A stretch of DNA of 32,000 nucleotides from assembly GCF_000012925.1 (NCBI RefSeq), contig NC_007517.1, positions 720,001 through 752,000 of the forward strand, in the 5' to 3' direction. This DNA is from Geobacter metallireducens GS-15. Its GTDB lineage: Bacteria > Desulfobacterota > Desulfuromonadia > Geobacterales > Geobacteraceae. Shown piece after piece: positions 4,590-29,387 of this stretch. The translations under genes and the position numbers were made by a program. The stretch's first letter is position 1. Each line of letters begins with the position of its first letter. Under the pieces are notes generated by a model. It worked only from the letters and a program-made list of their open reading frames with translations, had not been told where the DNA came from and made no database searches.

Positions 4590-5627
<1,038 letters not shown>

Positions 5628-7253: not shown

Positions 7254-7333
7254 AACACAAGCAACTGAGCAACTGAGTAAGTTTAAAACACAATAAATTT
7301 TTGCTTTTCTCTGTTGCTCAGTTGCTCTGTGTT
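7254..7333. repeat. REP-like imperfect palindromic element in the nifD-nifK spacer
   Basis: Arms are AACACAAGCAACTGAGCAACTGAG (7254-7277) and CTCTGTTGCTCAGTTGCTCTGTGTT (7309-7333), giving ~22 paired positions around an AT-rich loop. Same family as the element at 16599-16691 plus 17852-17858. Confidence 0.7.
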
Positions 7334-7383: not shown

Positions 7384-8853
7384 ATGGCAAACAATCTAGG
7401 GCTAGCTGTCAAGCCGGTGACCGAGACCCCCGTCGAGGAGATCGAGAGAGTCGCCGCCTGGATCAACACCGAGGAGTACAGGGACCTCAACTTCAAGCGG
7501 GAGGCGTTGGTGGTCGCGCCGCCCCATGCCTGCCAGCCCCTGGGGGCCGAACTGGCGGCCCACGCCTTCGAAGGAAGCCTCCCCTTCGTCCACGGCTCCC
7601 AGGGGTGCGCATCCTACTACCGCTCCACCCTGAACCGCCATTTCCGCGAACCTGCCCCGGCCGTCTCCGATTCCATGACCGAGGACGGCGCCGTGTTCGG
7701 CGGCCAGAACAACCTCCACGAGGGTCTGGAGAACGCCATTGCCCTCTACAAGCCGAAGATGGTCTCCATCTTTACCTCGTGCATGCCGGAGATCATTGGC
7801 GACGACCTGTCCGCGTTCATCAAGAATGCCCGCAACAAGGGGATCGTCCCTGCGGACATGCCGGTCCCCTATGCCAACACCCCGAGCTTCAGCGGCTCCC
7901 ACGTCCACGGCTACGACGCCATGCTCCTCTCCATCCTCCAGGCCCTGACCGAGGGGAAGAAGGTGGAGGGGCGCTGCACCGGCAAGATCAACCTGCTTCC
8001 CGGCTTTGACGCCAACACCGGCAACTTTAGGGAGTACAAGCGAATCTTCGAGGCTTTCGGCGTGCCGTACACCATCCTCGGCGACATCTCCGACGTCTTC
8101 GATTCGCCTCTGGACGGCACCTACCGCATCTATCCCGGCGGCACCAGGCTGGACGATGCTGCCGACTCCATCAACGGCAAGGCCACCATCAGCCTCGGCC
8201 CCTATTCGGCCACCAAGACCTATGCCTGGGCCAAGGACAACTATGCCGGCAAGCACACGGCGCTCCCCATGCCGCTGGGGATTGCCAAGACCGATGCCTT
8301 CCTCATGAAGATCGCCGAGGTCGCCGGCAAGCCGGTACCCGAGAGCTTCAAGGCCGAACGGGGGAGGGCGGTGGATGCCATGACCGACGCCCACCAGTAC
8401 ATGCACGGCAAGAAGTTCGCCCTCTACGGCGACCCGGACCAGCTCATCGGCTACGTCAGCTTCCTCTTGGAGATGGGGGCGGTGCCGTACCACATTCTCT
8501 GCAGCAAGGGGAGCAAGAAGGTGGAAAAGGAGATCCAGGCGCTCCTCGATTTGTCCCCGTACGGGAAGCAGGGGAAGATTTACATGGGCAAGGACCTCTG
8601 GCACATGAGGAGTCTCATCATGACCGACCCCGTGGACGCCATCATCGGGGACACCCACGGCAAGTTCATGGCCCGCGACGCGAAGATACCGCTGTTCCGC
8701 TTCGGCTTCCCTGTCCTTGACCGGGTGAACCTGCACCGCTACCCGATCATCGGCTACCAGGGGGTAATCAACATGGTGACGACCATCTGCAACAAATTTA
8801 TCGACATCACCGACGAGACTTGTGAGGATAGACAGTTTGAGATGATGCGCTAA
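7384..8853 (+). CDS. nifK: Nitrogenase MoFe protein beta chain
   Basis: 489 aa. Contains ACQPLGAELAAHAFEGSLPFVHGSQGCASYYRSTLNRHFREP. RBS AAAGGAG at 7371-7377. Confidence 0.97.
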   Translation: MANNLGLAVKPVTETPVEEIERVAAWINTEEYRDLNFKREALVVAPPHACQPLGAELAAHAFEGSLPFVHGSQGCASYYRSTLNRHFREPAPAVSDSMTEDGAVFGGQNNLHEGLENAIALYKPKMVSIFTSCMPEIIGDDLSAFIKNARNKGIVPADMPVPYANTPSFSGSHVHGYDAMLLSILQALTEGKKVEGRCTGKINLLPGFDANTGNFREYKRIFEAFGVPYTILGDISDVFDSPLDGTYRIYPGGTRLDDAADSINGKATISLGPYSATKTYAWAKDNYAGKHTALPMPLGIAKTDAFLMKIAEVAGKPVPESFKAERGRAVDAMTDAHQYMHGKKFALYGDPDQLIGYVSFLLEMGAVPYHILCSKGSKKVEKEIQALLDLSPYGKQGKIYMGKDLWHMRSLIMTDPVDAIIGDTHGKFMARDAKIPLFRFGFPVLDRVNLHRYPIIGYQGVINMVTTICNKFIDITDETCEDRQFEMMR

Positions 8854-8883
8854 CCGGCTGTAATTATTAAATATCGGTACGAA

Positions 8884-8944
8884 GGCCAGTGGCTATATTC
8901 TAGACGAAAATTTATAGAATACAGAGTCACTGGCCTTTTATTTA
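8884..8944 (+). terminator. Intrinsic terminator of the nifHDK operon
   Basis: GGCCAGTG...TATTCTA-loop-TAGAATA...CACTGGCC (8-bp and 7-bp stems with an internal loop) followed by TTTTATTTAT. Confidence 0.65.
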
Positions 8945-8950
8945 TGGTTC

Positions 8951-8981
8951 GGTGTACCTGGCGGTGTACTTCCGGGTGTAT
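8951..8981 (+). repeat. Three direct GGTGTAY repeats with a 12-nt period
   Basis: GGTGTAC at 8951 and 8963, GGTGTAT at 8975. Followed by a tandem GCGATGTC-GCGATGTC at 8996-9011. Confidence 0.5.
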
Positions 8982-9157
8982 CCAACGATTATCGTGCGAT
9001 GTCGCGATGTCTTGACGGCCGGCAGTTGTTGGAGTAGCTTGTATATCATTGATTGGGAACACCTTGGTAGATCGGATTGATCTCCCCTTTGCCCTGATGA
9101 TGGATTTTTTCGTGGCATGGATGCTTGTCGGAAACGAGGCCGCAATTGGTGGATCAA

Positions 9158-9202
9158 GCCGTTCGGGTCAGCGTGTAGCTGAACCGGACGGCTTTTCTGT
9201 TT
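9158..9202 (+). terminator. Orphan plus-strand intrinsic terminator with no preceding annotated gene
   Basis: GCCGTTCGGGTCAGC-gtgta-GCTGAACCGGACGGC (13 Watson-Crick pairs, 1 GU, 1 mismatch) followed by TTTTCTGTTT. The reverse complement has no T run, so the element is strand-specific. Confidence 0.6.
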
Positions 9203-9296
9203 GCTGACGGTGGTTGGGCGTTAATGTGATGACAAGAAAAATATCGACAGCTGTACGCGCTGCAGATTATGGAATCCGGGCACCGAGGTGTATCTA

Positions 9297-10163
9297 ATGA
9301 CCAGAACCGTCAACAAGGGGTTCCATGAGTTCCTTCACCGGATCGCTCCCCCGCGCACAGAGGCGGAATCTCTGAAAACACTCCATAGTTCCGTCGCGGA
9401 CTTCTTGAGAATCGGCTATGGACTGAATGATTTCATCATAACCGGTTCCTTGCGCAACGGGACGTGTATTAATGGCTGGAGCGGCTACGATTATTTTGCC
9501 GTGATGCCAACGGGGAAGTTGAAAGCGGATTCCGTGGCGACGGTTTCGGAGATAAAAAATTATCTGGATTTTCATCTGCAGGATGCCGAAGTGAGAATTC
9601 AGTATCCAGGAATAGAGGTGGCCGTTGGTGCTCAGGGGACAACCAAGGTTATCCCGGTCGATTTTGTCACGGAGGCGAACGGACAAAAAATATATGACAT
9701 GCCGGATGACACCGGCGGGTGGATGAGGACGAGTCCGGACGCCCATGGTGCGTACATAAAAACAATTGAGCAGCGGCTGGGTGTGGGGGGTAGAAATCTC
9801 ATGCGGCTCATGAAGGCGTGGAAATATTGTGGCGGCGTGCCGATCTCCTCGTTTTATCTGGAGTTAGCAGTAGCCAAATATTTGGAACATGCATCGTCTG
9901 TCGTTTATGATGTGGATGTACACGGCGTCTTTCAATATCTATTCAACAATGAAATGGCTCCGATCGAGGATCCGATGGGGGTGTCGGGATGCGTGAACCC
10001 TTGTTCAGCGCATTCCGATTACATGACAGTGAAAACGGAACTTACTGCCGCATTCATGCGAGCCGCTAGGGCACTGGAAGCGCGATTGAAATATAATGTC
10101 GCTGAAGCGTTCGAATGGTGGCGATTGCTGTATAACGGAAAATTCCCCTCGTATTACCGGTAG
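9297..10163 (+). CDS. Nucleotidyltransferase-fold protein (SMODS/CD-NTase/OAS-like), orphan gene in a low-GC insert
   Basis: 288 aa from the ATG at 9297, with GAGG 8 nt upstream. It has a pol-beta-like ITGSLRNGTCINGWSGYDYFAVM motif, a later VIPVDFV, and a helical region LMRLMKAWKY..ISSFYLELAVAKYL resembling CD-NTase/OAS C-terminal lobes. The G[GS]...DxD motif carries only one Asp. Local GC is ~47% (one 60-nt line counted). Confidence 0.5.
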   Translation: MTRTVNKGFHEFLHRIAPPRTEAESLKTLHSSVADFLRIGYGLNDFIITGSLRNGTCINGWSGYDYFAVMPTGKLKADSVATVSEIKNYLDFHLQDAEVRIQYPGIEVAVGAQGTTKVIPVDFVTEANGQKIYDMPDDTGGWMRTSPDAHGAYIKTIEQRLGVGGRNLMRLMKAWKYCGGVPISSFYLELAVAKYLEHASSVVYDVDVHGVFQYLFNNEMAPIEDPMGVSGCVNPCSAHSDYMTVKTELTAAFMRAARALEARLKYNVAEAFEWWRLLYNGKFPSYYR

Positions 10164-10201
10164 TGTTGTAGTATCTCGGGCGGAGTAGACGATGCGTCCC
10201 A

Positions 10202-10245
10202 AACACGAACGGCCCGCCAGGATAACTCGGCGGGCCGTTCGTGTT
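10202..10245. terminator. Bidirectional terminator hairpin between the NTase gene and the histidine kinase gene
   Basis: Perfect 17-bp stem AACACGAACGGCCCGCC / GGCGGGCCGTTCGTGTT with a 10-nt loop. Confidence 0.7.
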
Positions 10246-10315
10246 ACCTGGTGCCCGTTGCTGCGCTCACCTCCTGTCACCGGATTCTGCTTTATGCTTG
10301 TGGCCTGTTAAACGG

Positions 10316-12172
10316 TCATCTCTCCGGCAGGGTGAAGTAGAATGTCGCTCCCGCATCGACGCTCCCCTCGGCCCAGACCCGGCCCCCGTGGCGTTCGATG
10401 ATTCGCTTCACCGTGGCAAGGCCGATGCCGGTCCCCTGGAATTCGCTGCCGTGGAGCCGCTGGAAGGGGCGGAAGAGCTTGCTCACGTAGGCCATGTTGA
10501 AACCTGACCCATTGTCTTTGACAAAGAAGGCGCGTTCTCCTTCCACGTACGCGGTGCCGAACTCGATGAGGGCTTGAGGCGTTTTGGCGGAGTACTTCAA
10601 TGCATTTCCCAGCAGGTTCAGCAGGACCTGGCGAATGAGAATCTTGTCGGCCCGGGCCGTGAGGCCGTCGGCAATGACCCACTCAACGGTCCGGTCCGGC
10701 TCCGTTTCCCTGAACATGGCGACAATCATTGCTGCCGTTTTGCTGAGATTGATCGTGCTCCTGTGCAGTTCTACCCGGTTGACCCGCGACAGTTCCAGCA
10801 GGTCGTCGATGAGCTGGCCCATGCGGGCGCTTGCCATGCCGATGCGTTCCAGGTAGCGACGGGCCTCTGTCGGAAGCTGTTTCTCGAAATCCTCTATCAC
10901 CATGGCGCTGTAACTGTTGATGTGGCGCAGCGGAGCCCGCAGGTCATGGGAAACCGAGTAGCTGAAAGACTCCTGCTCCCGGATGGCAGCCTCCAGTTGG
11001 GCAGTCCGTTCTTCGACCCGCCTTTCCAGCGTTTCGTTCAGCGTGCGAATTTCTTCCTCGGCCAGCTTGCGCTCGGTTATATCCTGAGAGGTGCCGAAAA
11101 GGAATAGTTCGCCGGGAGCCTCCCCCGCCTCGCAGCGGCATGCCTCGAGTATCCAATGGATAGTGCCATTCTTTGCAATGATCCGGAATTCGTCAGAATA
11201 GGTTTCACCCGGCGCCAATTTCATGACATTGCTGCTCACCCGGTCCCGATCGTCGGGGTGTACCAACCTCATCCAACAGCCCCATTCATGAATCTGCTCC
11301 GCTGAATAGCCGGTTATCGCCTCCACCGCGCCACCCATCCACCGGACCCGGTAGGGGGAATCTCCTTGACGGCTGCAGAAATTGACATAGTCAGAGGTGA
11401 GCGATGAAAAGCGGCGGTAGCGCTCCTCGCTTTGCCGCAAGGCCTTATCCGCGTGTTTGTGATCGGTGATGTCCCGGAGAAAGGCCAAGAAGCAGTTCGT
11501 GGTGCGCTCGTACGTCGTGCTGATTTCCACGTCGATGATAGATCCGTCTTTACGGCGATGACGGGTTTCGAAACGGTCATAGCCGCTGTTGATGAGGGCG
11601 CGCATGTGTTTGGCGGTCTCTTCCGAGCTTTCGGCGGTTTCGATATCCCTGAGGTTGATGGCCAGGAGTTCTTCGCGGCTATACCCCAGCATCGCACAGC
11701 AGGCATCGTTCATTTCGATGATCTTGCCGTTCTGGTCAACCACCCAGAAACCGTCCATGGAGGTGCTGTTGAGGATCTGGTACCGCGCGGCATTCTCCTT
11801 CACCTGCTCCTGGGCAGACACCAGGTCGGTGATGTCGTGCATGATGTAGATGATCCGGTCTGTTCCTGAGGCGCTAAACTCAACGTGGCGGCGGCATCCG
11901 TCTTTCGTGGTGATGGCGACGCGTCGCGGGGCAGGGAACCCCGCAGTCCTGTCGGAATCGTAAATCTCTCGGATTTTTTTATTGCACGGGCCGTGGAGCT
12001 TTTGGAACCAGTCGTCGATTGATCTAATCTCGTCCATCCCGTAACCGATGAGACGCTCGGCAGCCCGGTTGAAGCAGATGTGGTCGCCTTCGGTGTACAA
12101 CGCGGCCACCGGCAGCGCCTCAACAATCGCCATGAGCGCTTCGCGGTCGGGATGAAAGATGTCGTACGGCAT
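10316..12172 (-). CDS. Multi-PAS sensor histidine kinase (HisKA + HATPase_c)
   Basis: 618 aa with several PAS/PAC repeats. H-box is SHDLRAPLRHI. N, G1 and G2 boxes are NLLGNALKY, DNGSGF and GTGIGL. No transmembrane segment is evident. Confidence 0.9.
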   Translation of the reverse strand: MPYDIFHPDREALMAIVEALPVAALYTEGDHICFNRAAERLIGYGMDEIRSIDDWFQKLHGPCNKKIREIYDSDRTAGFPAPRRVAITTKDGCRRHVEFSASGTDRIIYIMHDITDLVSAQEQVKENAARYQILNSTSMDGFWVVDQNGKIIEMNDACCAMLGYSREELLAINLRDIETAESSEETAKHMRALINSGYDRFETRHRRKDGSIIDVEISTTYERTTNCFLAFLRDITDHKHADKALRQSEERYRRFSSLTSDYVNFCSRQGDSPYRVRWMGGAVEAITGYSAEQIHEWGCWMRLVHPDDRDRVSSNVMKLAPGETYSDEFRIIAKNGTIHWILEACRCEAGEAPGELFLFGTSQDITERKLAEEEIRTLNETLERRVEERTAQLEAAIREQESFSYSVSHDLRAPLRHINSYSAMVIEDFEKQLPTEARRYLERIGMASARMGQLIDDLLELSRVNRVELHRSTINLSKTAAMIVAMFRETEPDRTVEWVIADGLTARADKILIRQVLLNLLGNALKYSAKTPQALIEFGTAYVEGERAFFVKDNGSGFNMAYVSKLFRPFQRLHGSEFQGTGIGLATVKRIIERHGGRVWAEGSVDAGATFYFTLPER

Positions 12173-13717: not shown

Positions 13718-13764
13718 AACAGTGATTCAACACGGAAGATGTATCCCGACGGTTTTCAGGCAAA

Positions 13765-13810
13765 GGCGCCGACCATTCCCCCCCCCGGAATGGCGGCGCC
13801 TTTTTTCTTT
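13765..13810 (+). terminator. Intrinsic terminator/attenuator inside the nifEN leader
   Basis: GGCGCCG(A)CCATTCC-CCCCCCC-GGAATGGCGGCGCC followed by TTTTTTCTTT. It has 14 bp with a bulged A at the same place as in the nifH leader terminator, and ends 18 nt before the ATG. Confidence 0.75.
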
Positions 13811-16587: not shown

Positions 16588-17826
<1,239 letters not shown>

Positions 17827-19789: not shown

Positions 19790-19811
19790 GGGGAGAGTGA
19801 AGGCTCTCCCC
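19790..19811. terminator. Short hairpin shared by the convergent draT and res genes
   Basis: GGGGAGAG-tgaagg-CTCTCCCC. The 3' arm overlaps the res stop codon. No clear T tract. Confidence 0.4.
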
Positions 19812-22507
19812 TATGAATTCCTGCTGATTACATCCTCAATCTGCTGTTCCACGCCGCGCCCCTGTCCGTCCTCCATAACCGCCAAGAGGAACAGACAGCG
19901 TCCGCTGCTGGATTCCTGCCACTGGTACCCTATCTGAACCTTCTCTCGCGAATCATCGTTGGTCTTGTAAGGCTCGCCCTTGTACTCAACCGTCAGCACG
20001 CGGCCATCAGTTAGCTCACACACAAAATCCGGGTAAAAATAATCAGTTGCGGTTGGCAGCCAGAAGGAGAACCGCTCCTCCCTCTCCACGTTGCGCACCC
20101 ACTGTTTCACCGCCGGATGCCGGTCAATGGCCCGGGCGCAGAGAAATTCCTCCGATGGCGTCCCATCCGCCCGCTTCTCGCGGAGGTCGTGAATCACGGG
20201 ATAGTAATGCTTCCTGAACCGGTAGCGTCCCGAATAGTAGGGGGGGCGGGCCGGATAGTGGGTCGGGTGAAAGGTGAAGGCGTATTTGAAGCTGTCTTCC
20301 AGTCTCGGAGCAGACATGAAGCCGGGGAGGGATCGCTGAAAACCCGTGGCGACGGCCTTTCCCCGGCGCCACTCGATTTCCCGGCGGATTGCCTCCGCCA
20401 GGGGGTACTTGGCCCGGAGCAGCGCGGTCAGGGAGAAGCCGCGATCCGCCTGAAGGTGACGAGTCAGCGCCAGTAGCCATTTGATGAGGGTCGGCTGTCC
20501 CACGTCGATCTGGCGGCATTCGCGGTCGAGCCAACGCACCAGATCGTTTTCGGTGGCATGGGGGGCAACCTCGTTCAGGTGGAGTTGTTCGCTGTCCGTT
20601 TCCCCGTACACCACCCGCCCGCCATCAACGTCAATCTCAAAGGCCGCGCCCCGCTCCACGAGGGAAAATCTCGCCAGGCACACCGGCTCGGCAAAGAGAT
20701 CGAACTCGCCCAATTCGGAGAGGAGCCGTTTTTCAACTGGCTGAAGCTCACCGTCCCAGTCAAGGCAGAGCTGCGGCAGCGGGGCGAACCTCTCCCCACG
20801 TGCCGATGGCGCTGTCAGGGCCGCCCGCCGCACCCGCTCGGTGTCGATGGCGTCCTTCACCCCCTGGCGGTGCCGGGCGTTGCAGGCCGTCAGCAGAAAT
20901 TCCTCAACCTCTTCCGACAGTTCACCCCGCACAATCGCCGTTGCGCCGGAAGTTGTCGGCCGTATTTCAACGGACTCCTTCAACTCCTCGGGCACCGGCA
21001 GCGTCGGCGCGGCGGGGAGTGAAATAACCGCTTCCGCCGGTCGCGGGCGGGTATATTCGCCCGACTCCGGCAGAGGGAGAACGTCTTGCGCCGGCGCGAT
21101 GGCTTGGGCAGCTTCGTAAGACTCGAACCCCATGTTGTTCACCAGCCGGTCGGCCAGTTGATCCGCAACCCGTGCGAAGCCCTGCGCCACGATGTGCGCG
21201 TAGGCCTTGGCCAGCTCTGTCTGGTGGCGGGGCCGGGCATGGGGCATCCGCAGCACGCGGCCCAGAAGCTGCTCCACATCCTTGGCGCTTCTGGCGTCCT
21301 GTAGGCTGCACAGCACATAGGCAAAGGGGCAATCCCACCCCTCCTTCAGCGCCTCAACGGTAATCACGTAGCGGATCGGGCAGAGGGGGTCCGCCAGCAC
21401 GATTCCGTCCAGCTCCTTCTGGTCGCCGGTCGCCACGGCAATCTGCCGGCGGTCCAGCTTTTCGCCGTCGGGGCTCGTCAGGTGCTCCAGCAGCCTCTCC
21501 ACTGTAACCTCGCCGTTCTTCGGCTCGGCCTGGAACAGCAGCACCGGGCGGATATAGTCCGGCTCCCCGGCTGCCAGCTTCTCCAGCCGGTCGCGGGTCA
21601 GGATGGCGTCGCGCACGGCATCCTTCCAGCCGGTCGGGTGCTCCATCAGCACGATGGGGAGCTTTATCATGTCTTCCCGCTGCAGGGCGCTCGCCCCCAC
21701 GTGATAGAGCACGTTGCTGCTTGCGGCGGGGGTGGCGGTCAGCTCGATGACGCAGGCCGGGTGCAGGTTTTTCAGCGTGCGGAATGCCTGGTCGGTCCGG
21801 TTGTTATGGGCCTCGTCCACCACCACGATGGGGCGGTTGAGGGTCAGCCAGTTGGCCAGCGACGCCTTCACCCGACCCAGGTCCGTTGCCGTCAGGTAGG
21901 GCTGGGCGGCAATGTCCGCTTCGGTCACCCGGTCGAGCCGCGCCTCTTGCCGGGGGGTGAGCCCCTGAAAATGGCGGGAGAAATTCTCGTCGAAGGAATA
22001 AACGGTGCGCTGGGTTTTTTCCTTTACGTTGAAGGACTGGATCGTCGCCACCACAATAATGGCCGACTGCCCCACCTCCTGGGGGCCCACCGTGGCCAGG
22101 TCGTCCAGGGCGCATACACGCACCCGTTCGCCGAAATAGCTCGTCAGGGCTTCGCGGCAGGGGTTGCGCGGCGTGGAGAGGGCCGCAAGGGTCTGGCTGC
22201 GGATGGCGTCGGAGGGGACCAGCCACAACGCCACTGGCGCATCGGTATCCGCCAGGGTCTTGCCGATTCGCGCCACCGCGTGGGCCGCCAGAAACGTCTT
22301 GCCCCCGCCGGTAGGGATGCGCACGCAGACGGCCGGGGTTTCACCCAGGGTTTCGGCGTTGTAGGCTGCCTGCCGTGCTTGTCCCTGCTTCTCCTGCACC
22401 GGTGCGCAGTGCCGCCACGCCTCGGCCAGGCCCGACATGCGCAGTTGACGGAAAAACCCGTCAAGGGCCGTAAGGGCATTTTCCTGATAATCCTTAAGTT
22501 TGAACAT
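19811..22507 (-). CDS. res: Type III restriction enzyme Res subunit (SF2 helicase plus PD-(D/E)xK nuclease)
   Basis: 898 aa. Contains IPTGGGKT (Walker A), VVDEAHNN (DEAH box) and C-terminal YPDF...TVEYKG (PD..ExK). The start lies 2 nt after the mod stop. Confidence 0.9.
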   Translation of the reverse strand: MFKLKDYQENALTALDGFFRQLRMSGLAEAWRHCAPVQEKQGQARQAAYNAETLGETPAVCVRIPTGGGKTFLAAHAVARIGKTLADTDAPVALWLVPSDAIRSQTLAALSTPRNPCREALTSYFGERVRVCALDDLATVGPQEVGQSAIIVVATIQSFNVKEKTQRTVYSFDENFSRHFQGLTPRQEARLDRVTEADIAAQPYLTATDLGRVKASLANWLTLNRPIVVVDEAHNNRTDQAFRTLKNLHPACVIELTATPAASSNVLYHVGASALQREDMIKLPIVLMEHPTGWKDAVRDAILTRDRLEKLAAGEPDYIRPVLLFQAEPKNGEVTVERLLEHLTSPDGEKLDRRQIAVATGDQKELDGIVLADPLCPIRYVITVEALKEGWDCPFAYVLCSLQDARSAKDVEQLLGRVLRMPHARPRHQTELAKAYAHIVAQGFARVADQLADRLVNNMGFESYEAAQAIAPAQDVLPLPESGEYTRPRPAEAVISLPAAPTLPVPEELKESVEIRPTTSGATAIVRGELSEEVEEFLLTACNARHRQGVKDAIDTERVRRAALTAPSARGERFAPLPQLCLDWDGELQPVEKRLLSELGEFDLFAEPVCLARFSLVERGAAFEIDVDGGRVVYGETDSEQLHLNEVAPHATENDLVRWLDRECRQIDVGQPTLIKWLLALTRHLQADRGFSLTALLRAKYPLAEAIRREIEWRRGKAVATGFQRSLPGFMSAPRLEDSFKYAFTFHPTHYPARPPYYSGRYRFRKHYYPVIHDLREKRADGTPSEEFLCARAIDRHPAVKQWVRNVEREERFSFWLPTATDYFYPDFVCELTDGRVLTVEYKGEPYKTNDDSREKVQIGYQWQESSSGRCLFLLAVMEDGQGRGVEQQIEDVISRNS

Positions 22508-22509
22508 GG

Positions 22510-24072
22510 TTAGCGCGCCTTGATATCGTAAGGGATTTGTTTGAACGTGATGCCTGCCTCGCGCAGCCGGGCTTCCCCCAGCCGGGTGGTTTCACCGTAG
22601 ATCACCCGGGGGCCGTGGTGGGGATAGGCCTCGTCCAGATGGGCCAGCACGGCCGAGGTGAGCACGTTGCCCCCCTGGGGCCGCCGGTCGCCGAGGATAC
22701 CGTTGTAGAGGAGATACCAAGCCGTGCCCCCATGGGTGCCGAGCAGCGGGGTGGTGAAGGTCTGCCGCGCCGGTTCCCCCGTCTCGAAATGCCAGAGATA
22801 GGCGGCCAGGGCCGGGAAACGGACCGCTGGGTGGATGCCGCCGTCGGCGTCGAACACCGGCTCCCCGAGGGAGTGGAAGCGGAAGCCGCCCCCCCCCTGC
22901 CAGTCCACCGCCTTGGAAATTCCCCCTGGCTCTCCGCCGATGACCTTTTCCAGGCGCGGCAGGCAGTGGGTCACGGCGTGCTCCCCCATTTCGATACCGA
23001 TCCAGCGGCGGCCCATCTTGTGGGCCACGGCGGCGGTGGTGCCGGAGCCGAGGAAGGAGTCGAGGACGAGGTCGCCGGGGTTAGTGGCGATGTGTATGAT
23101 GCGTTGAAGCAATGCTTCAGGCTTTGGTGTTTCAAAAGCTGCCTTTTCACCAAATAGTTTCTCTATTTCAGAGCTAGCATGCTGATTTAACCCTGTATCG
23201 CTCCATATAGAGGGGGTAGTCATCCCCTGCTTTGCTTCATCCAAAAAGAGCTTGCGCATAGGAGTCTTGGCGGTCCCGTTTACTCCCCAATATAGGCGTT
23301 TTTCAGCTTGAAGGCGTTCCATCTCTTCTTTGCTATGCCGCCAGCATGTACCTTGACGAGGCCAAACTTCTTCAGCGGTGTAAGGGTTTTTAATAGGGTA
23401 AAATAGGCTAGTTACAAACCGTCCACCCTTGCCGTTAGCTGTTGTGTCTATCTTGCGGAAAGGTCCTCGCTCATCCGGTCCATCGGGTTCTTTGAATACA
23501 TCATATTGCGAGTTTGCTTTTTCCGTACGTGGCATAAGGTTGAACGCCTCTTCAGCTAACGTCTTTTTGCTGTTACCGCTTTTCCCCTTGCCCCAAACAA
23601 GAATATGCTCATGGATTGCTCCGATTTTTCGATCGTTTGGTGGGCCATCTCGTTTTTGCCACGAGACGTCAATTATAAAATTTAGTCTTCCAAAAATCTC
23701 ATCGACAATGACCTTGATGTAATGTGCTTCGTTGTCATCACACGAAATCCATAAACTACCATCTTCCTTCAGCAGTTCCCGCAGCAGCACCAACCGGGGA
23801 TACATCATCGACAGCCACTGGGAATGCTCCAGCTTGTCGTCGTAGTGGGCAAAGGCCGACTGGGTGTTGTAGGGGGGGTCGATATAGATGCACTTCACCC
23901 GTCCCCGGTAAAAGGGGAGCAGGGCCTTGAGGGCCTTGAGGTTGTCTCCCTGAATGAGAAGGTTGTCGGCCCCCGCGTCTCCGTGGGCCGTCCGGAATTG
24001 CAGCAGGTGATAGGGAACGTCGGCGGTGCTGCTCACCGCCTGGGTCTTGTTGACCCAGTCAAGAAAGGGCAT
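22510..24072 (-). CDS. mod: Type III Mod DNA methyltransferase (beta-class N6A/N4C)
   Basis: 520 aa. Motif IV IYIDPPYN is near the N-terminus and motif I LDSFLGSGTTAAVA is near the C-terminus, with a central variable region. Confidence 0.9.
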   Translation of the reverse strand: MPFLDWVNKTQAVSSTADVPYHLLQFRTAHGDAGADNLLIQGDNLKALKALLPFYRGRVKCIYIDPPYNTQSAFAHYDDKLEHSQWLSMMYPRLVLLRELLKEDGSLWISCDDNEAHYIKVIVDEIFGRLNFIIDVSWQKRDGPPNDRKIGAIHEHILVWGKGKSGNSKKTLAEEAFNLMPRTEKANSQYDVFKEPDGPDERGPFRKIDTTANGKGGRFVTSLFYPIKNPYTAEEVWPRQGTCWRHSKEEMERLQAEKRLYWGVNGTAKTPMRKLFLDEAKQGMTTPSIWSDTGLNQHASSEIEKLFGEKAAFETPKPEALLQRIIHIATNPGDLVLDSFLGSGTTAAVAHKMGRRWIGIEMGEHAVTHCLPRLEKVIGGEPGGISKAVDWQGGGGFRFHSLGEPVFDADGGIHPAVRFPALAAYLWHFETGEPARQTFTTPLLGTHGGTAWYLLYNGILGDRRPQGGNVLTSAVLAHLDEAYPHHGPRVIYGETTRLGEARLREAGITFKQIPYDIKAR

Positions 24073-27577: not shown

Positions 27578-27630
27578 AATGGATAAGCAAAGGCCACACG
27601 ACGAAGTGTGGAGAGGAAGACAGGCACAGG

Positions 27631-27664
27631 AGCCCGGCGCGAGAAATCCGCCGGGCTTTTTTTC
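27631..27664 (+). terminator. Intrinsic terminator/attenuator inside the nifB leader
   Basis: AGCCCGGCG-cgagaaatc-CGCCGGGCT (9 bp) followed by a T run (TTTTTTT counting the last stem T). It is preceded by the hexaloop hairpin CCACAC-GACGAA-GTGTGG (27594-27611) and CAGGCA (27621-27626). Confidence 0.75.
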
Positions 27665-27697
27665 GTTCAGGCAGCCCATTCGGGCACGGAGGCAGAG

Positions 27698-28570
27698 ATG
27701 GCCACATCATGCGACCAGTTGAAGAAGATCCAGGGGCACCCCTGCTTCGGCGGCAACCACCACAAGAACGGCCGGATGCACCTGGCCGTGGCGCCCCGCT
27801 GCAACATCAAGTGCGGCTACTGCACCCGCAGGCACGACTGCGCCAACGAGTCCCGCCCCGGCGTCACGAGCCGGCTTATCACTCCCGCCGAGGCCATCGC
27901 CAAGGTTCGCGAGGTGATGGCGAGCTCGGTGATGGGGCCCATCATCAAGGTGATCGGCATTGCCGGCCCCGGCGACCCCTTGGCCAACGAAGAGACTTTC
28001 GAGACGTTCCGCCTCGTGGGGGAAGAGTTCCCGCATCTCATGAAGTGCATGAGCACCAACGGGCTCCTCCTCCCTGACGCCATCGAGCGGCTCCACCAAC
28101 TGGACCTCCACAGCCTCACCGTTACCCTCAACGCCCTCGATCCGGCGGTGGGGGCGCGGATTTACGGACACATCAGCTATCAAGGCCAGGTTTTTCGGGG
28201 CGTCGAGGCGGCGGAGATCCTGGTGGCCAACCAGCTGGAGGGGATCCGGCGGGCCGTGGGATACGGGATGACGGTGAAGGTGAACACCGTCTACATCCCC
28301 GGGGTCAACGAGGAGCAGGTGCCCCTTATCGGAAGAAAAATCAAGGAGCTCGGCGCCTTTGTCATGAATATAATGCCGCTCATACCCCAGGCTGATTTCG
28401 CCCATATCAGCCCGCCGCCGCCCGAAGAGCTGGACCGGGTGCGGCAGCGAAACGAGTCGATCATCGGCCAGTTCAAGCACTGCCGCCAGTGCCGGGCCGA
28501 CGCCGTGGGGCTCATCGGCCGGGATGCCACCGTGACGGAGTCTGGCACTCCGCTTACCGTTGCCGTTTGA
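27698..28570 (+). CDS. nifB: NifB, radical-SAM domain only (no C-terminal NifX-like domain)
   Basis: 290 aa from the ATG at 27698 (GGAGG RBS). Contains HPCFGGNHHKNGRMHLAVAPRCNIKCGYCTR and the CxxxCxxC motif. Confidence 0.92.
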   Translation: MATSCDQLKKIQGHPCFGGNHHKNGRMHLAVAPRCNIKCGYCTRRHDCANESRPGVTSRLITPAEAIAKVREVMASSVMGPIIKVIGIAGPGDPLANEETFETFRLVGEEFPHLMKCMSTNGLLLPDAIERLHQLDLHSLTVTLNALDPAVGARIYGHISYQGQVFRGVEAAEILVANQLEGIRRAVGYGMTVKVNTVYIPGVNEEQVPLIGRKIKELGAFVMNIMPLIPQADFAHISPPPPEELDRVRQRNESIIGQFKHCRQCRADAVGLIGRDATVTESGTPLTVAV

Positions 28571-28577
28571 GGCTGGC

Positions 28578-29387
28578 ATGAGGATCAGGCCCTTTTATCC
28601 CGATGACGTTTCCCTGTTTCTAGCCCTTGCCGCCGCCGAGGGGTGGATCAGCGACCCGTGGGAGTTTGCATTCATCCTCGAAAGCTTTCCCTGTGGTTGC
28701 CTCGCCGTGGAGGAAAACGGGCGGCCCGTGGCGTTCGCCACCGCGGTCCGCTACGGCGCGAGCGGGTGGATCGGCAATCTGATCGTGGCGGAGGAGTATC
28801 GCGGACGGGGATACGGAACCCTCCTCATGGGCCGAGCCATGGACCAGCTTCTGGACTCCGGAGCCAGGACCGTCTGGCTCACCGCGTCGGCGCAGGGACG
28901 TCCCCTTTACGAGAAAATGGGGTTCCGGGAAATGGACGGCGTGGTTCGCTGGTGCGGAACGGCCACGGGGGGGACGCAATGGCACGATGACCCCGTTGCT
29001 CCGGACGAATTGGTTCCCCTCGATCGTGCCGGATGGGGTGATGACCGCAGGTGTGTCCTGAGTGCCGTGGCTGCTCGAGGAATAGTGCTGCGGGAGAACG
29101 GAGGCTTCCTGGTGACCCAGCCGTGCGGAAGCGGCTTCCAGCTGGGCCCTTGGGCGGCAGAGGGGCGGGGCGTTGCCGGGGAGCTCCTGGGGCGGGCGCT
29201 CTCCCGCCTGCAGGGGGGGGCGCAGGTTCTCCTCGACGTGCCGGTCCGCAATGGTGCCGCCGCCTCTGTTCTCGCTCATGCCGGCTTTGCCGCCTGCGGG
29301 CGGACGGTCCTCATGTGCGTGGGTGACGAGCCGGCCTATAAGCCGGAAAAGATTTTCGCCCTTGCCACATTGGGGAGCGTGGGGTGA
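28578..29387 (+). CDS. GNAT-family N-acetyltransferase
   Basis: Contains IGNLIVAEEYRGRGYGTLLMGRAMDQL...YEKMGF (acetyl-CoA binding motif A). ATG at 28578. The track ORF begins at a TTG that overlaps the end of nifB. Confidence 0.7.
   Translation: MRIRPFYPDDVSLFLALAAAEGWISDPWEFAFILESFPCGCLAVEENGRPVAFATAVRYGASGWIGNLIVAEEYRGRGYGTLLMGRAMDQLLDSGARTVWLTASAQGRPLYEKMGFREMDGVVRWCGTATGGTQWHDDPVAPDELVPLDRAGWGDDRRCVLSAVAARGIVLRENGGFLVTQPCGSGFQLGPWAAEGRGVAGELLGRALSRLQGGAQVLLDVPVRNGAAASVLAHAGFAACGRTVLMCVGDEPAYKPEKIFALATLGSVG

What the first reader, a model, noticed from the sequence alone, without database searches (positions are those of the whole stretch)
8945..10250. Low-GC insert inside the nif cluster encoding an orphan CD-NTase/SMODS-like nucleotidyltransferase with an incomplete catalytic motif
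A ~1.3-kb segment lies between the nifHDK terminator and the kinase terminator. It drops to about 45-50% GC, against about 60-65% in the flanks, which suggests horizontal acquisition. Its only sizeable ORF (9297-10163) has a pol-beta nucleotidyltransferase fold signature and an OAS/CD-NTase-like helical lobe. Where GS-x(9-13)-DxD is expected, it reads GS-LRNGTCINGWSGY-D-Y-F, so only one of the two motif carboxylates is present. No effector, sensor or Cap-like gene is adjacent, unlike CBASS operons. The only neighbours are a repeat-rich non-coding stretch and an orphan terminator (see the next two findings). This could be a solitary or RNA-partnered defence or toxin-type module, or a degenerate remnant.
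Basis: partly seen in the sequence, partly recalled or inferred. Interest (0 to 1): 0.65.

Follow-up and report, generated by a model that had tools for sequence, protein, structure and literature searches.

The report
Effector-less CBASS cyclase relic in nif cluster
A Geobacter nitrogen-fixation gene cluster carries a lone relative of the bacterial cGAS-like anti-phage enzymes that has lost its killing partner and one catalytic residue, yet is still kept intact by selection, so it has probably taken on a new, unknown job.

Summary
ORF 9297-10163 (+) encodes a 288-aa CD-NTase/SMODS protein: PADLOC cyclase PDLC00776 E 2e-78, AlphaFold pLDDT 92.7, Foldseek TM 0.84 to P. aeruginosa CdnD. The segment is low in GC (ORF GC3 0.58 vs 0.88 in nifD/K). 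The motif register needs correcting: the family reads GS-x11-D-V-D and the window reads G63-Y-D65, so the first Asp is missing, not the second. Its canonical relatives (40-46% identity) all keep that Asp (114/114), and the three loci examined have an S_4TM effector gene just downstream (type I CBASS). The window protein belongs to a small monophyletic clade of seven known sequences, at least six of them between nifK and nifEN of Geobacter nif clusters. None has an adjacent effector. Asp63 was lost at least twice (Gly in 3, Ile in 1, Asp kept in 3), yet pairwise dN/dS is 0.15-0.26, including between members that both carry Gly63. The gene has its own conserved sigma70-like promoter and a leader of about 250 nt with a terminator-like hairpin. 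It is therefore not a recent insert, not a decaying pseudogene and not a CBASS system. It is most likely a repurposed, probably non-catalytic, CD-NTase. Any functional link to nitrogen fixation is unproven, because the nifK-nifEN gap is a variable pocket.

The parts
8881..8946 (+). nifK (nifHDK) intrinsic terminator: 14+7 bp hairpin followed by TTTTATTT. It forms the upstream boundary of the unit.
   Evidence: -28.9 kcal/mol, z -6.25; inverted repeats I4 and I6
8951..8988 (+). Three GGTGTAY copies at exact 12-nt phasing (8951, 8963, 8975). The last extends to a 14-nt copy of the sequence over the start codon (9287-9300). Specific to this window and absent from all orthologous loci.
   Evidence: similarity to L002 starts only at 8990
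9012..9040 (+). Conserved sigma70-like promoter: TTGACG (9012-9017), 17-nt spacer, TAGCTT (9035-9040). Found as CCTTGAC-N18-GTAGnTTG in five of the other six loci; L006 has CCTTGCA at the -35 position.
   Evidence: missed by the consensus scan (-10 is TAGCTT); inference from sequence conservation
9042..9296 (+). Conserved untranslated leader of about 250 nt. It has an invariant TGGCATGGATGC block (9113-9124), a small hairpin AGATC/GATCT (9069-9083), and a 5' segment (9052-9068) complementary to the RBS region (9282-9298). It is not protein-coding: the indels between orthologues are not multiples of three.
   Evidence: MFE -98.1 kcal/mol, z -4.4; I1, I3; no Rfam family; no GnfR motif
9156..9203 (+). 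Terminator-like hairpin inside the leader (arms 9156-9172 and 9178-9194, 88% complementary) followed by CTTTTCTGTTT. Kept in most of the six loci that have the long leader (L008 lacks about 10 nt of the apical part). Candidate attenuator.
   Evidence: -22.8 kcal/mol, z -3.2; I2
9285..9290 (+). Ribosome-binding site GAGGTG, 6 nt before the ATG.
   Evidence: conserved purine-rich GGAGG/GAGGTG in the orthologues
9297..10163 (+). CD-NTase (SMODS) homologue, 288 aa. GS motif at codons 50-51 (9444-9449). Gly63 (9483-9485, GGC) replaces the first catalytic Asp. Asp65 (9489-9491) and Asp122 (9660-9662) are retained.
   Evidence: purifying selection
10202..10245 (.). 20-bp G+C-rich hairpin shared by the convergent cyclase and histidine-kinase genes. 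A U-tract follows it only on the minus strand. It forms the downstream boundary.
   Evidence: -40.4 and -40.8 kcal/mol, z about -6.9

Best explanation
The ORF encodes a vertically inherited, effector-less descendant of a type I CBASS cyclase. Its canonical relatives are CdnD-like CD-NTases that are normally paired with an S_4TM membrane effector. An ancestor of a small Geobacter lineage acquired the cyclase gene without, or later lost, the effector, in the variable interval between nifK and nifEN. Since then the protein has evolved on a long branch under purifying selection. In this genome the first metal-binding Asp of the GS...DxD motif is Gly63, so the protein most likely no longer makes cyclic oligonucleotides, or does so very poorly. 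Because the GS loop, Asp65, Asp122 and the conserved K173/K176/S184-E189 block stay invariant, I infer that it still binds a nucleotide and works as a non-catalytic, pseudoenzyme-type binding or regulatory protein and not as a defence signal generator. It is transcribed on its own, insulated from nifHDK by the nifK terminator. Transcription starts at a conserved sigma70-like promoter and passes through a conserved leader of about 250 nt whose internal hairpin plus T-run probably attenuates expression. SHOWN: homology, fold, residue substitution, absence of an effector, synteny, purifying selection, conserved promoter and leader. INFERRED: loss of cyclase activity, retained nucleotide binding, attenuation, and any new role.
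For: Family and fold: PADLOC cyclase PDLC00776 E 2.3e-78 over the full length; Pfam SMODS above cutoff; AF2 pLDDT 92.7, pTM 0.88; Foldseek top hits PaCdnD TM 0.84, then CdnC, CdnD, CdnB and DncV. Register: the family D-V-D aligns to N62-I-N64 of the PaCdnD D62N/D64N mutant. Position 63 is Asp in 114/114 canonical relatives but Gly (3), Ile (1) and Asp (3) in the clade, while D65 and D122 are 7/7. Canonical context: SMODS(-SMODS)-S_4TM in 3 of 3 loci checked. Clade context: no effector in 7 of 7, and at least 6 of 7 lie between nifK and nifEN. Selection: dN/dS 0.15-0.26 with dS 0.5-1.7, including window vs P0002, which both carry Gly63 (0.22; 106 non-synonymous vs 100 synonymous differences). 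The clade is monophyletic (100% bootstrap) on a long stem, with Asp63 lost at least twice. Own promoter and leader are conserved at 70-81% nucleotide identity; the leader folds with z -4.4 and the hairpin plus T-run is conserved.
Against: No biochemical data exist. A two-carboxylate site might keep some activity, and three clade members keep an intact DxD, so the clade as a whole may not be inactive. The very recent lineage (window vs P0001) has too few differences to show constraint (10 non-synonymous, 6 synonymous; dN/dS 0.43). Only seven sequences are known, one from a named isolate. An effector encoded elsewhere in the genome cannot be excluded from a 32-kb window. Leader covariation is weak (covariation term about 0), and one orthologue (L009) lacks the long leader.
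Confidence: 0.55

Rival explanations
1. It is still an active cyclase. Gly63 is tolerated (or the remaining Asp65 and Asp122 plus water or another ligand suffice), and the protein produces a nucleotide signal for a receptor or effector encoded elsewhere, either for defence in trans or as a housekeeping second messenger.
For: The fold, GS loop, D65, D122 and most family-invariant residues are retained. Three clade members keep the full DxD. Purifying selection shows that the protein matters.
Against: Asp63 is invariant in 114/114 canonical relatives and corresponds to PaCdnD D62, one of the two residues mutated to obtain an inactive enzyme for the ATP-bound crystal (6p8j title). It was lost twice independently, to Gly and to Ile, with no compensating acidic residue. 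No effector is adjacent in any of the 7 loci, and none was found among the larger ORFs of the window.
Confidence: 0.2
2. It is a non-functional leftover of a degraded CBASS operon that has simply not yet accumulated disabling mutations.
For: The effector is gone, a catalytic residue is gone, codon usage is atypical (GC3 0.58), the clade is rare (7 clusters among 5.8 billion), and window vs P0001 gives dN/dS 0.43 on few differences.
Against: All seven ORFs are intact and full-length at dS up to 1.7, with dN/dS 0.15-0.26. There are 128 invariant columns out of 288 within the clade. The promoter, RBS and leader are conserved.
Confidence: 0.12
3. It is a nitrogen-fixation accessory or regulator: the CD-NTase-like protein has been recruited to sense or signal something relevant to nitrogenase (nucleotide or energy status, oxygen stress).
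For: At least 6 of 7 clade members sit between nifK and nifEN, four of them immediately upstream of the nifEN leader. Neighbours in the same gap are rubrerythrins, a PAS kinase and catalase/Fur in relatives.
Against: The leader lacks the GnfR target CAGGCAANGGCGCC, which is present upstream of nifH (4663) and nifEN (13757) (PMC2995071). It has no correctly spaced -24/-12 element (by inspection; TGGCAT-GGATGC has GG-N7-GC, not GG-N10-GC). The nifK-nifEN gap is a variable pocket with quite different cargo in Geobacter sp. SVR, so synteny among close relatives may be inheritance only. Most Geobacter nif clusters lack the gene, since only 7 clusters are known.
Confidence: 0.1
4. It is an RNA-partnered defence or toxin module: the upstream repeat-rich non-coding stretch encodes a trans-acting RNA partner of the NTase.
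For: The leader is conserved and structured (z -4.4) and ends in a terminator-like hairpin before the ORF, so a short stand-alone RNA of about 150 nt could be released.
Against: The promoter-leader-terminator-RBS-ORF arrangement on one strand is that of a cis-acting attenuator. There is no Rfam match. L009 keeps the gene and promoter without the long leader. The GGTGTAY repeats are specific to this window. There is no toxin or effector.
Confidence: 0.03

Closest known systems
Type I CBASS operons with a clade-D-type CD-NTase and a 4TM effector (e.g. EcCdnD12-4TM; bioRxiv 10.1101/2023.05.21.541620). The canonical relatives seen here are L003, L010 and L011.
   Same: Same protein family: best PADLOC model PDLC00776, 40-46% identity over the full length, same length of about 290 aa with no extra domains, same fold.
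   Different: No S_4TM or any other effector. First catalytic Asp replaced. Long divergent stem branch with fixed changes at positions that are at least 95% conserved in the family (G53R, N151G, H29L, R30H, R93H, K248E). Located in a nif cluster, whereas two of the three canonical loci checked also carry restriction-modification genes. Scores only 261 bits on PDLC00776, against 387-414 for canonical members.
Pseudomonas aeruginosa CdnD (type III CBASS, HORMA/TRIP13-regulated; PDB 6P82, 6P8J, 6P8U)
   Same: Closest solved structure: profile E 4e-30, Foldseek TM 0.84, 20% identity. The GS...DxD...D positions align one to one.
   Different: PaCdnD has D62/D64 intact and works with HORMA and TRIP13 partners and a NucC effector (the partner details are established knowledge, not tested here). 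None of these genes is present in the window.
Catalytically inactive members of the eukaryotic cGAS/OAS/Mab21 family (OASL, MAB21L1); comparison from general knowledge
   Same: They keep the CD-NTase/OAS fold, have lost active-site carboxylates, and are maintained by selection for non-catalytic roles.
   Different: Eukaryotic, with no direct relationship. The analogy is conceptual only and was not tested here.
Degenerate second cyclase in tandem SMODS-SMODS-S_4TM operons (L003:7272-8156)
   Same: Same family. One catalytic carboxylate is lost (third Asp to Asn, PANY). 9 of 114 canonical members lack D122.
   Different: Those copies remain inside a CBASS operon next to an intact cyclase and an effector, and a different catalytic residue is affected.

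Membership tests
CD-NTase / SMODS superfamily | Pol-beta-like nucleotidyltransferase core plus C-terminal helical lobe (cGAS/OAS-like fold) | tested here: met
   AF2 pLDDT 92.7, pTM 0.88; Foldseek: PaCdnD TM 0.84, E 6.5e-18; the top 28 hits are all CD-NTases
CD-NTase / SMODS superfamily | Significant match to curated family profiles | tested here: met
   Pfam PF18144 SMODS 28.5 bits vs cutoff 26.5; PADLOC Cyclase PDLC00776 E 2.3e-78 over residues 1-287 of 287
CD-NTase / SMODS superfamily | Complete catalytic signature G-S...[DE]-x-[DE]...[DE] | tested here: not met
   GS (50-51), D65 and D122 are present, but position 63 is Gly, where 114/114 canonical relatives and PaCdnD (D62) have Asp
NCBIfam CBASS oligonucleotide cyclase (equivalog NF041117) | Score at or above the curated equivalog cutoff (200 bits) | tested here: not met
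   68 bits
CBASS anti-phage system (type I) | Cyclase gene adjacent to a Cap effector gene (4TM, 2TM, patatin, endonuclease, TIR, etc.) | tested here: not met
   Window neighbours are nifK and a convergent PAS kinase. No PADLOC or Pfam effector was found among the larger ORFs of the window that were scanned, and none in the other six clade loci. Canonical relatives have S_4TM.
CBASS anti-phage system (type I) | Synthesis of a cyclic oligonucleotide signal | not testable with these tools
   Needs an enzyme assay. The sequence predicts impairment (Gly63).
CBASS anti-phage system (type I) | Protection against phage infection | not testable with these tools
   Needs phage challenge.
GnfR (ANTAR)-controlled nif leaders of Geobacter (PMC2995071) | Conserved CAGGCAANGGCGCC overlapping a leader terminator | tested here: not met
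   Exact motifs at 4663 (nifH leader) and 13757 (nifEN leader), none within 8855-9296 even with 2 mismatches
Known cis-regulatory RNA or riboswitch families (Rfam 15) | Match to a covariance model at or near the gathering score | tested here: not met
   No hit at gathering threshold in the whole window; only chance miRNA-model hits with E above 1 in 8800-10320

The most novel reading that the evidence does not exclude
A bacterial counterpart of OASL/MAB21: a CD-NTase that left its CBASS operon, lost catalysis and was domesticated by Geobacter as a nucleotide-sensing regulatory protein. It would be wired into the nitrogen-fixation and oxidative-stress gene neighbourhood and controlled by a previously undescribed riboswitch-like or attenuator leader (invariant TGGCATGGATGC block plus terminator).
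Probability: 0.12. Interest if true: 0.7.

Novelty: new variant of a known kind. Interest (0 to 1): 0.42.

Why it matters
CD-NTases are studied almost only as signal generators of CBASS defence. A lineage that has shed its effector and a catalytic Asp, yet stays under purifying selection across species, would be a natural example of a bacterial immune enzyme being repurposed, in parallel to the inactive cGAS/OAS relatives of animals. On the practical side, defence-annotation pipelines will flag this gene as a CBASS cyclase, and this analysis shows that it should not be counted as a defence system. It also documents that the nifK-nifEN gap of Geobacter nif clusters is a pocket that accumulates foreign and accessory genes.

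Tried and rejected
(1) A remnant of a lost partner gene. The 424-aa gene that precedes the cyclase in G. pickeringii leaves no trace in the window (tblastn best E 0.9). It proved to be a widespread Geobacteraceae gene (more than 500 homologues at 73-93% identity) that occurs without the cyclase and outside nif clusters, so it is not a dedicated partner. It has no Pfam, PADLOC or PDB sequence match.
(2) Leader peptide or small TM effector. The 52-codon ORF 9049-9207 has no PADLOC hit, and the indels among orthologues break its frame.
(3) GnfR/ANTAR control: no motif in the leader.
(4) Sigma54 promoter: the invariant TGGCATGGATGC has the wrong GG-GC spacing (by inspection).
(5) Known RNA family: none.
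(6) Riboswitch-grade covariation: only 4 of 34 predicted pairs show double changes and the covariation term is about 0, so this is not claimable.
(7) More clade members or leader copies. The genome-contig scan gave only two distant relatives.
(8) A compensating acidic residue in members that lack Asp63: none.
(9) The GGTGTAY phased repeats as a conserved operator: absent from every other locus.
(11) G53R next to the GS motif looked like a disabling change, but PaCdnD itself has Arg nearby (GSYARYT), so I draw no conclusion from it.
Full report
OBSERVATION. nifK ends at 8853 and is followed by a strong hairpin plus T-run (8881-8946; -28.9 kcal/mol, z -6.3). A 20-bp hairpin at 10202-10245 is shared with a convergent PAS histidine kinase (10316-12172, minus strand). 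GC falls to 0.46-0.53 in 300-nt windows, against 0.56-0.66 in the flanking nif genes. The only sizeable ORF is 9297-10163 (+), 288 aa. Its GC is 0.506 and its GC3 0.578, against GC3 of 0.88-0.89 in nifD, nifK and nifEN.

WHAT THE PROTEIN IS. It is a CD-NTase. Pfam SMODS scores just above threshold (28.5 vs 26.5 bits). The PADLOC CBASS cyclase model PDLC00776 matches end to end (E 2.3e-78). The closest solved sequences are P. aeruginosa CdnD (E 2e-10 alone; E 4e-30 with a family profile). An AlphaFold2 model built on 121 sequences is confident (pLDDT 92.7, pTM 0.88). Its best structural matches are PaCdnD (TM 0.84), then E. coli CdnC, Enterobacter CdnD, Bacteroides CdnB and DncV. It falls below NCBI's equivalog cutoff for CBASS cyclases (68 vs 200 bits).

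THE CATALYTIC MOTIF. The family reads GSFGNGTSISGYS-D-V-D-YF and the window reads GSLRNGTCINGWS-G-Y-D-YF. In the profile alignment to the PaCdnD D62N/D64N mutant, the family D-V-D lines up with N62-I-N64. Gly63 therefore replaces the first Asp, Asp65 is the second, and the third Asp (D122, PVDF) is present. Among the 114 canonical relatives in the top 120 hits, position 63 is Asp in 114 of 114.

RELATIVES AND THEIR CONTEXTS. The homologue search shows two tiers. The large canonical tier (40-46% identity) belongs to type I CBASS. All three loci I examined have an S_4TM effector gene just downstream of the cyclase(s): SMODS-SMODS-S_4TM or SMODS-S_4TM. Two of these loci (L003, L011) also carry restriction-modification genes. 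This agrees with the literature statement that type I CBASS mostly pairs clade D, E or F cyclases with 2TM or 4TM effectors, for example EcCdnD12-4TM (bioRxiv 10.1101/2023.05.21.541620).

The close tier is only six other clusters (59-97% identity), which with the window protein form a 100%-supported clade on a long stem branch. None of the seven loci has an effector. Their positions are notable:
- G. pickeringii: nifHDK, a 424-aa gene, the cyclase, nifEN.
- L002 (97% identity): nifK, FKBP, the cyclase, then kinase and rubrerythrin as in the window.
- L008: nifK, the cyclase, the nifEN leader.
- L007: the 424-aa gene, the cyclase, the nifEN leader.
- L009: rubrerythrin, the cyclase, nifEN.
- L006: non-nif DNA upstream, on a short contig.

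So the gene is an old resident of the nifK-nifEN interval in a small Geobacter lineage and not a recent insert.

IS IT STILL A GENE? Yes. Pairwise Nei-Gojobori dN/dS among the seven orthologues is 0.15-0.26, with dS of 0.5-1.7, and all ORFs are intact and full-length. Within the clade, position 63 is Asp in three members (P0003, P0004, P0005), Gly in three (window, P0001, P0002) and Ile in the basal P0006. On the tree this needs at least two independent losses, and no compensating acidic residue appears. The window and P0002 both carry Gly63, group together (67% bootstrap) and still show dN/dS of 0.22 (106 non-synonymous vs 100 synonymous differences). Purifying selection therefore continued after the Asp was lost. 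The clade also carries fixed substitutions at positions that are at least 95% conserved in the canonical family (G53R/H, N151G, H29L, R30H, R93H, K248E), while GS, D65, D122, K173, K176, S184-E189, D225 and R255 remain invariant. This is the pattern of a functional shift and not of decay.

REGULATION. The upstream 'repeat-rich non-coding stretch' and the 'orphan terminator' belong to the same gene. Six of the seven loci share the following:
- a sigma70-like promoter (TTGACG 9012-9017, 17 nt, TAGCTT 9035-9040; L006 has CCTTGCA at the -35 position);
- a leader with an invariant TGGCATGGATGC block (9113-9124);
- a long hairpin (9156-9194) followed by CTTTTCTGTTT (partly deleted in L008);
- a purine-rich RBS.

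The leader folds better than shuffled controls (z -4.4; hairpin z -3.2). It is not coding, because the indels between orthologues are out of frame. It matches no Rfam family. It lacks the GnfR/ANTAR target CAGGCAANGGCGCC that Ueki and Lovley defined (PMC2995071), which does occur upstream of nifH (4663) and nifEN (13757) in this window. Covariation support is too thin to call a riboswitch, and L009 keeps the promoter but not the long leader. The three phased GGTGTAY repeats at 8951-8981 are specific to this window.

IS THE nif LINK FUNCTIONAL? That is not shown. The nifK-nifEN gap is a variable pocket. In this window it also holds a PAS kinase and two rubrerythrins. In Geobacter sp. SVR it holds about a dozen unrelated genes and no cyclase. 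Compared with G. pickeringii, this window's nif cluster has also taken up an IS110 transposase and a complete type III restriction-modification system. Shared position among close relatives can be inheritance alone.

MECHANISM, WITH CONFIDENCE. My best reading (0.55) is an effector-less descendant of a CdnD-4TM type I CBASS cyclase. It is transcribed on its own through an attenuator-like leader. In this lineage it has lost a metal-binding Asp, so it most likely does not make a cyclic-oligonucleotide signal, but it is retained as a nucleotide-binding pseudoenzyme or regulator. Homology, fold, substitution, missing effector, synteny, selection and the conserved promoter and leader are shown. Inactivity, ligand binding, attenuation and the new role are inferred. 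The rivals are:
- a still-active cyclase signalling in trans (0.20);
- a not-yet-decayed remnant (0.12);
- a genuine nif or oxidative-stress accessory role (0.10);
- an RNA-partnered module (0.03).

NOVELTY AND SCORE. I found no paper linking SMODS or CD-NTase genes to nif clusters or to Geobacter. The G. pickeringii orthologue is annotated only as 'nucleotidyltransferase family protein'. This is a new variant of a known kind: a CD-NTase clade that does not meet two defining features of CBASS (complete catalytic triad, adjacent effector). It is of moderate interest (0.42). The evolutionary pattern is clean and somewhat unexpected, but the clade is tiny, the nif association may be positional, and no function can yet be assigned.

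Noticed in passing
window 19811-24072 (-): A complete type III restriction-modification system (Res 898 aa, PADLOC REase_III 2170 bits; Mod 520 aa, MTase_III 782 bits) is inserted between draT and the cytochrome/draG genes of the nif cluster. It is absent from the syntenic G. pickeringii locus.
   Followed up: partly
window 16687-17826 (+); repeats 7296-7326 and 16661-16691: An IS110-family transposase lies directly after nifEN and is absent in G. pickeringii. The 31 nt just upstream of it (..TTTTCTCTGTTGCTCAGTTGCT) are 87% identical to a stretch in the nifD-nifK intergenic gap. This could be an IS end, a target site or a shared nif intergenic element.
   Followed up: no
window 4663-4676 and 13757-13770 (+): Exact copies of the published GnfR/ANTAR target CAGGCAANGGCGCC lie upstream of nifH and nifEN. 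A GnfR-like ANTAR response regulator is at 438-1046. The window therefore carries the Geobacter antitermination circuit of Ueki and Lovley 2010.
   Followed up: partly
window 8951-8988 and 9287-9300 (+): Three GGTGTAY copies at exact 12-nt phasing lie just upstream of the cyclase promoter. A 14-nt copy (GGTGTATCCAACGA) of the sequence spanning the cyclase start codon (GGTGTATCTAATGA) sits at the point where similarity to the closest relative (L002) begins. These features are specific to this window. They could be a rearrangement scar or a strain-specific operator.
   Followed up: partly
window 9052-9068 vs 9282-9298 (+): The 5' end of the leader is 76% complementary (a 9-bp core, CACCUUGGU/ACCGAGGUG) to the RBS and start-codon region, and the two pair in the MFE fold. 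This is a possible anti-Shine-Dalgarno element. Its conservation in other loci is unclear.
   Followed up: no
L001:6347-7621 (G. pickeringii), also L012 and L013: A 424-aa protein lies between nifK and the cyclase in G. pickeringii. It is very highly conserved across Geobacteraceae (more than 500 homologues at 73-93% identity) and usually follows a rhomboid gene. It has no Pfam, PADLOC or PDB sequence match, although a few sources label it 'DAC domain-containing' or DisA-like. It is an uncharacterised conserved family.
   Followed up: partly
L003:6001-9181: A canonical relative forms a tandem SMODS-SMODS-S_4TM operon in which the second cyclase has Asn at the third catalytic Asp (PANY). 9 of 114 canonical family members lack that Asp. 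Degenerate cyclase paralogues may be a recurrent feature of this CBASS family.
   Followed up: partly
L002:449-1029: In the 97%-identical metagenomic relative, an FKBP-type peptidyl-prolyl isomerase gene with its own terminator sits between nifK and the cyclase promoter, replacing window 8854-8989. This is further evidence that the interval turns over quickly.
   Followed up: yes
window 27608-29387 (+): A radical-SAM protein (weak PADLOC pVip hit, E 2e-7) is followed by a GNAT acetyltransferase. This matches the 'radical SAM plus acetyltransferase' nif-regulon operon mentioned in PMC2995071, so the viperin-like hit is probably only superfamily similarity.
   Followed up: no
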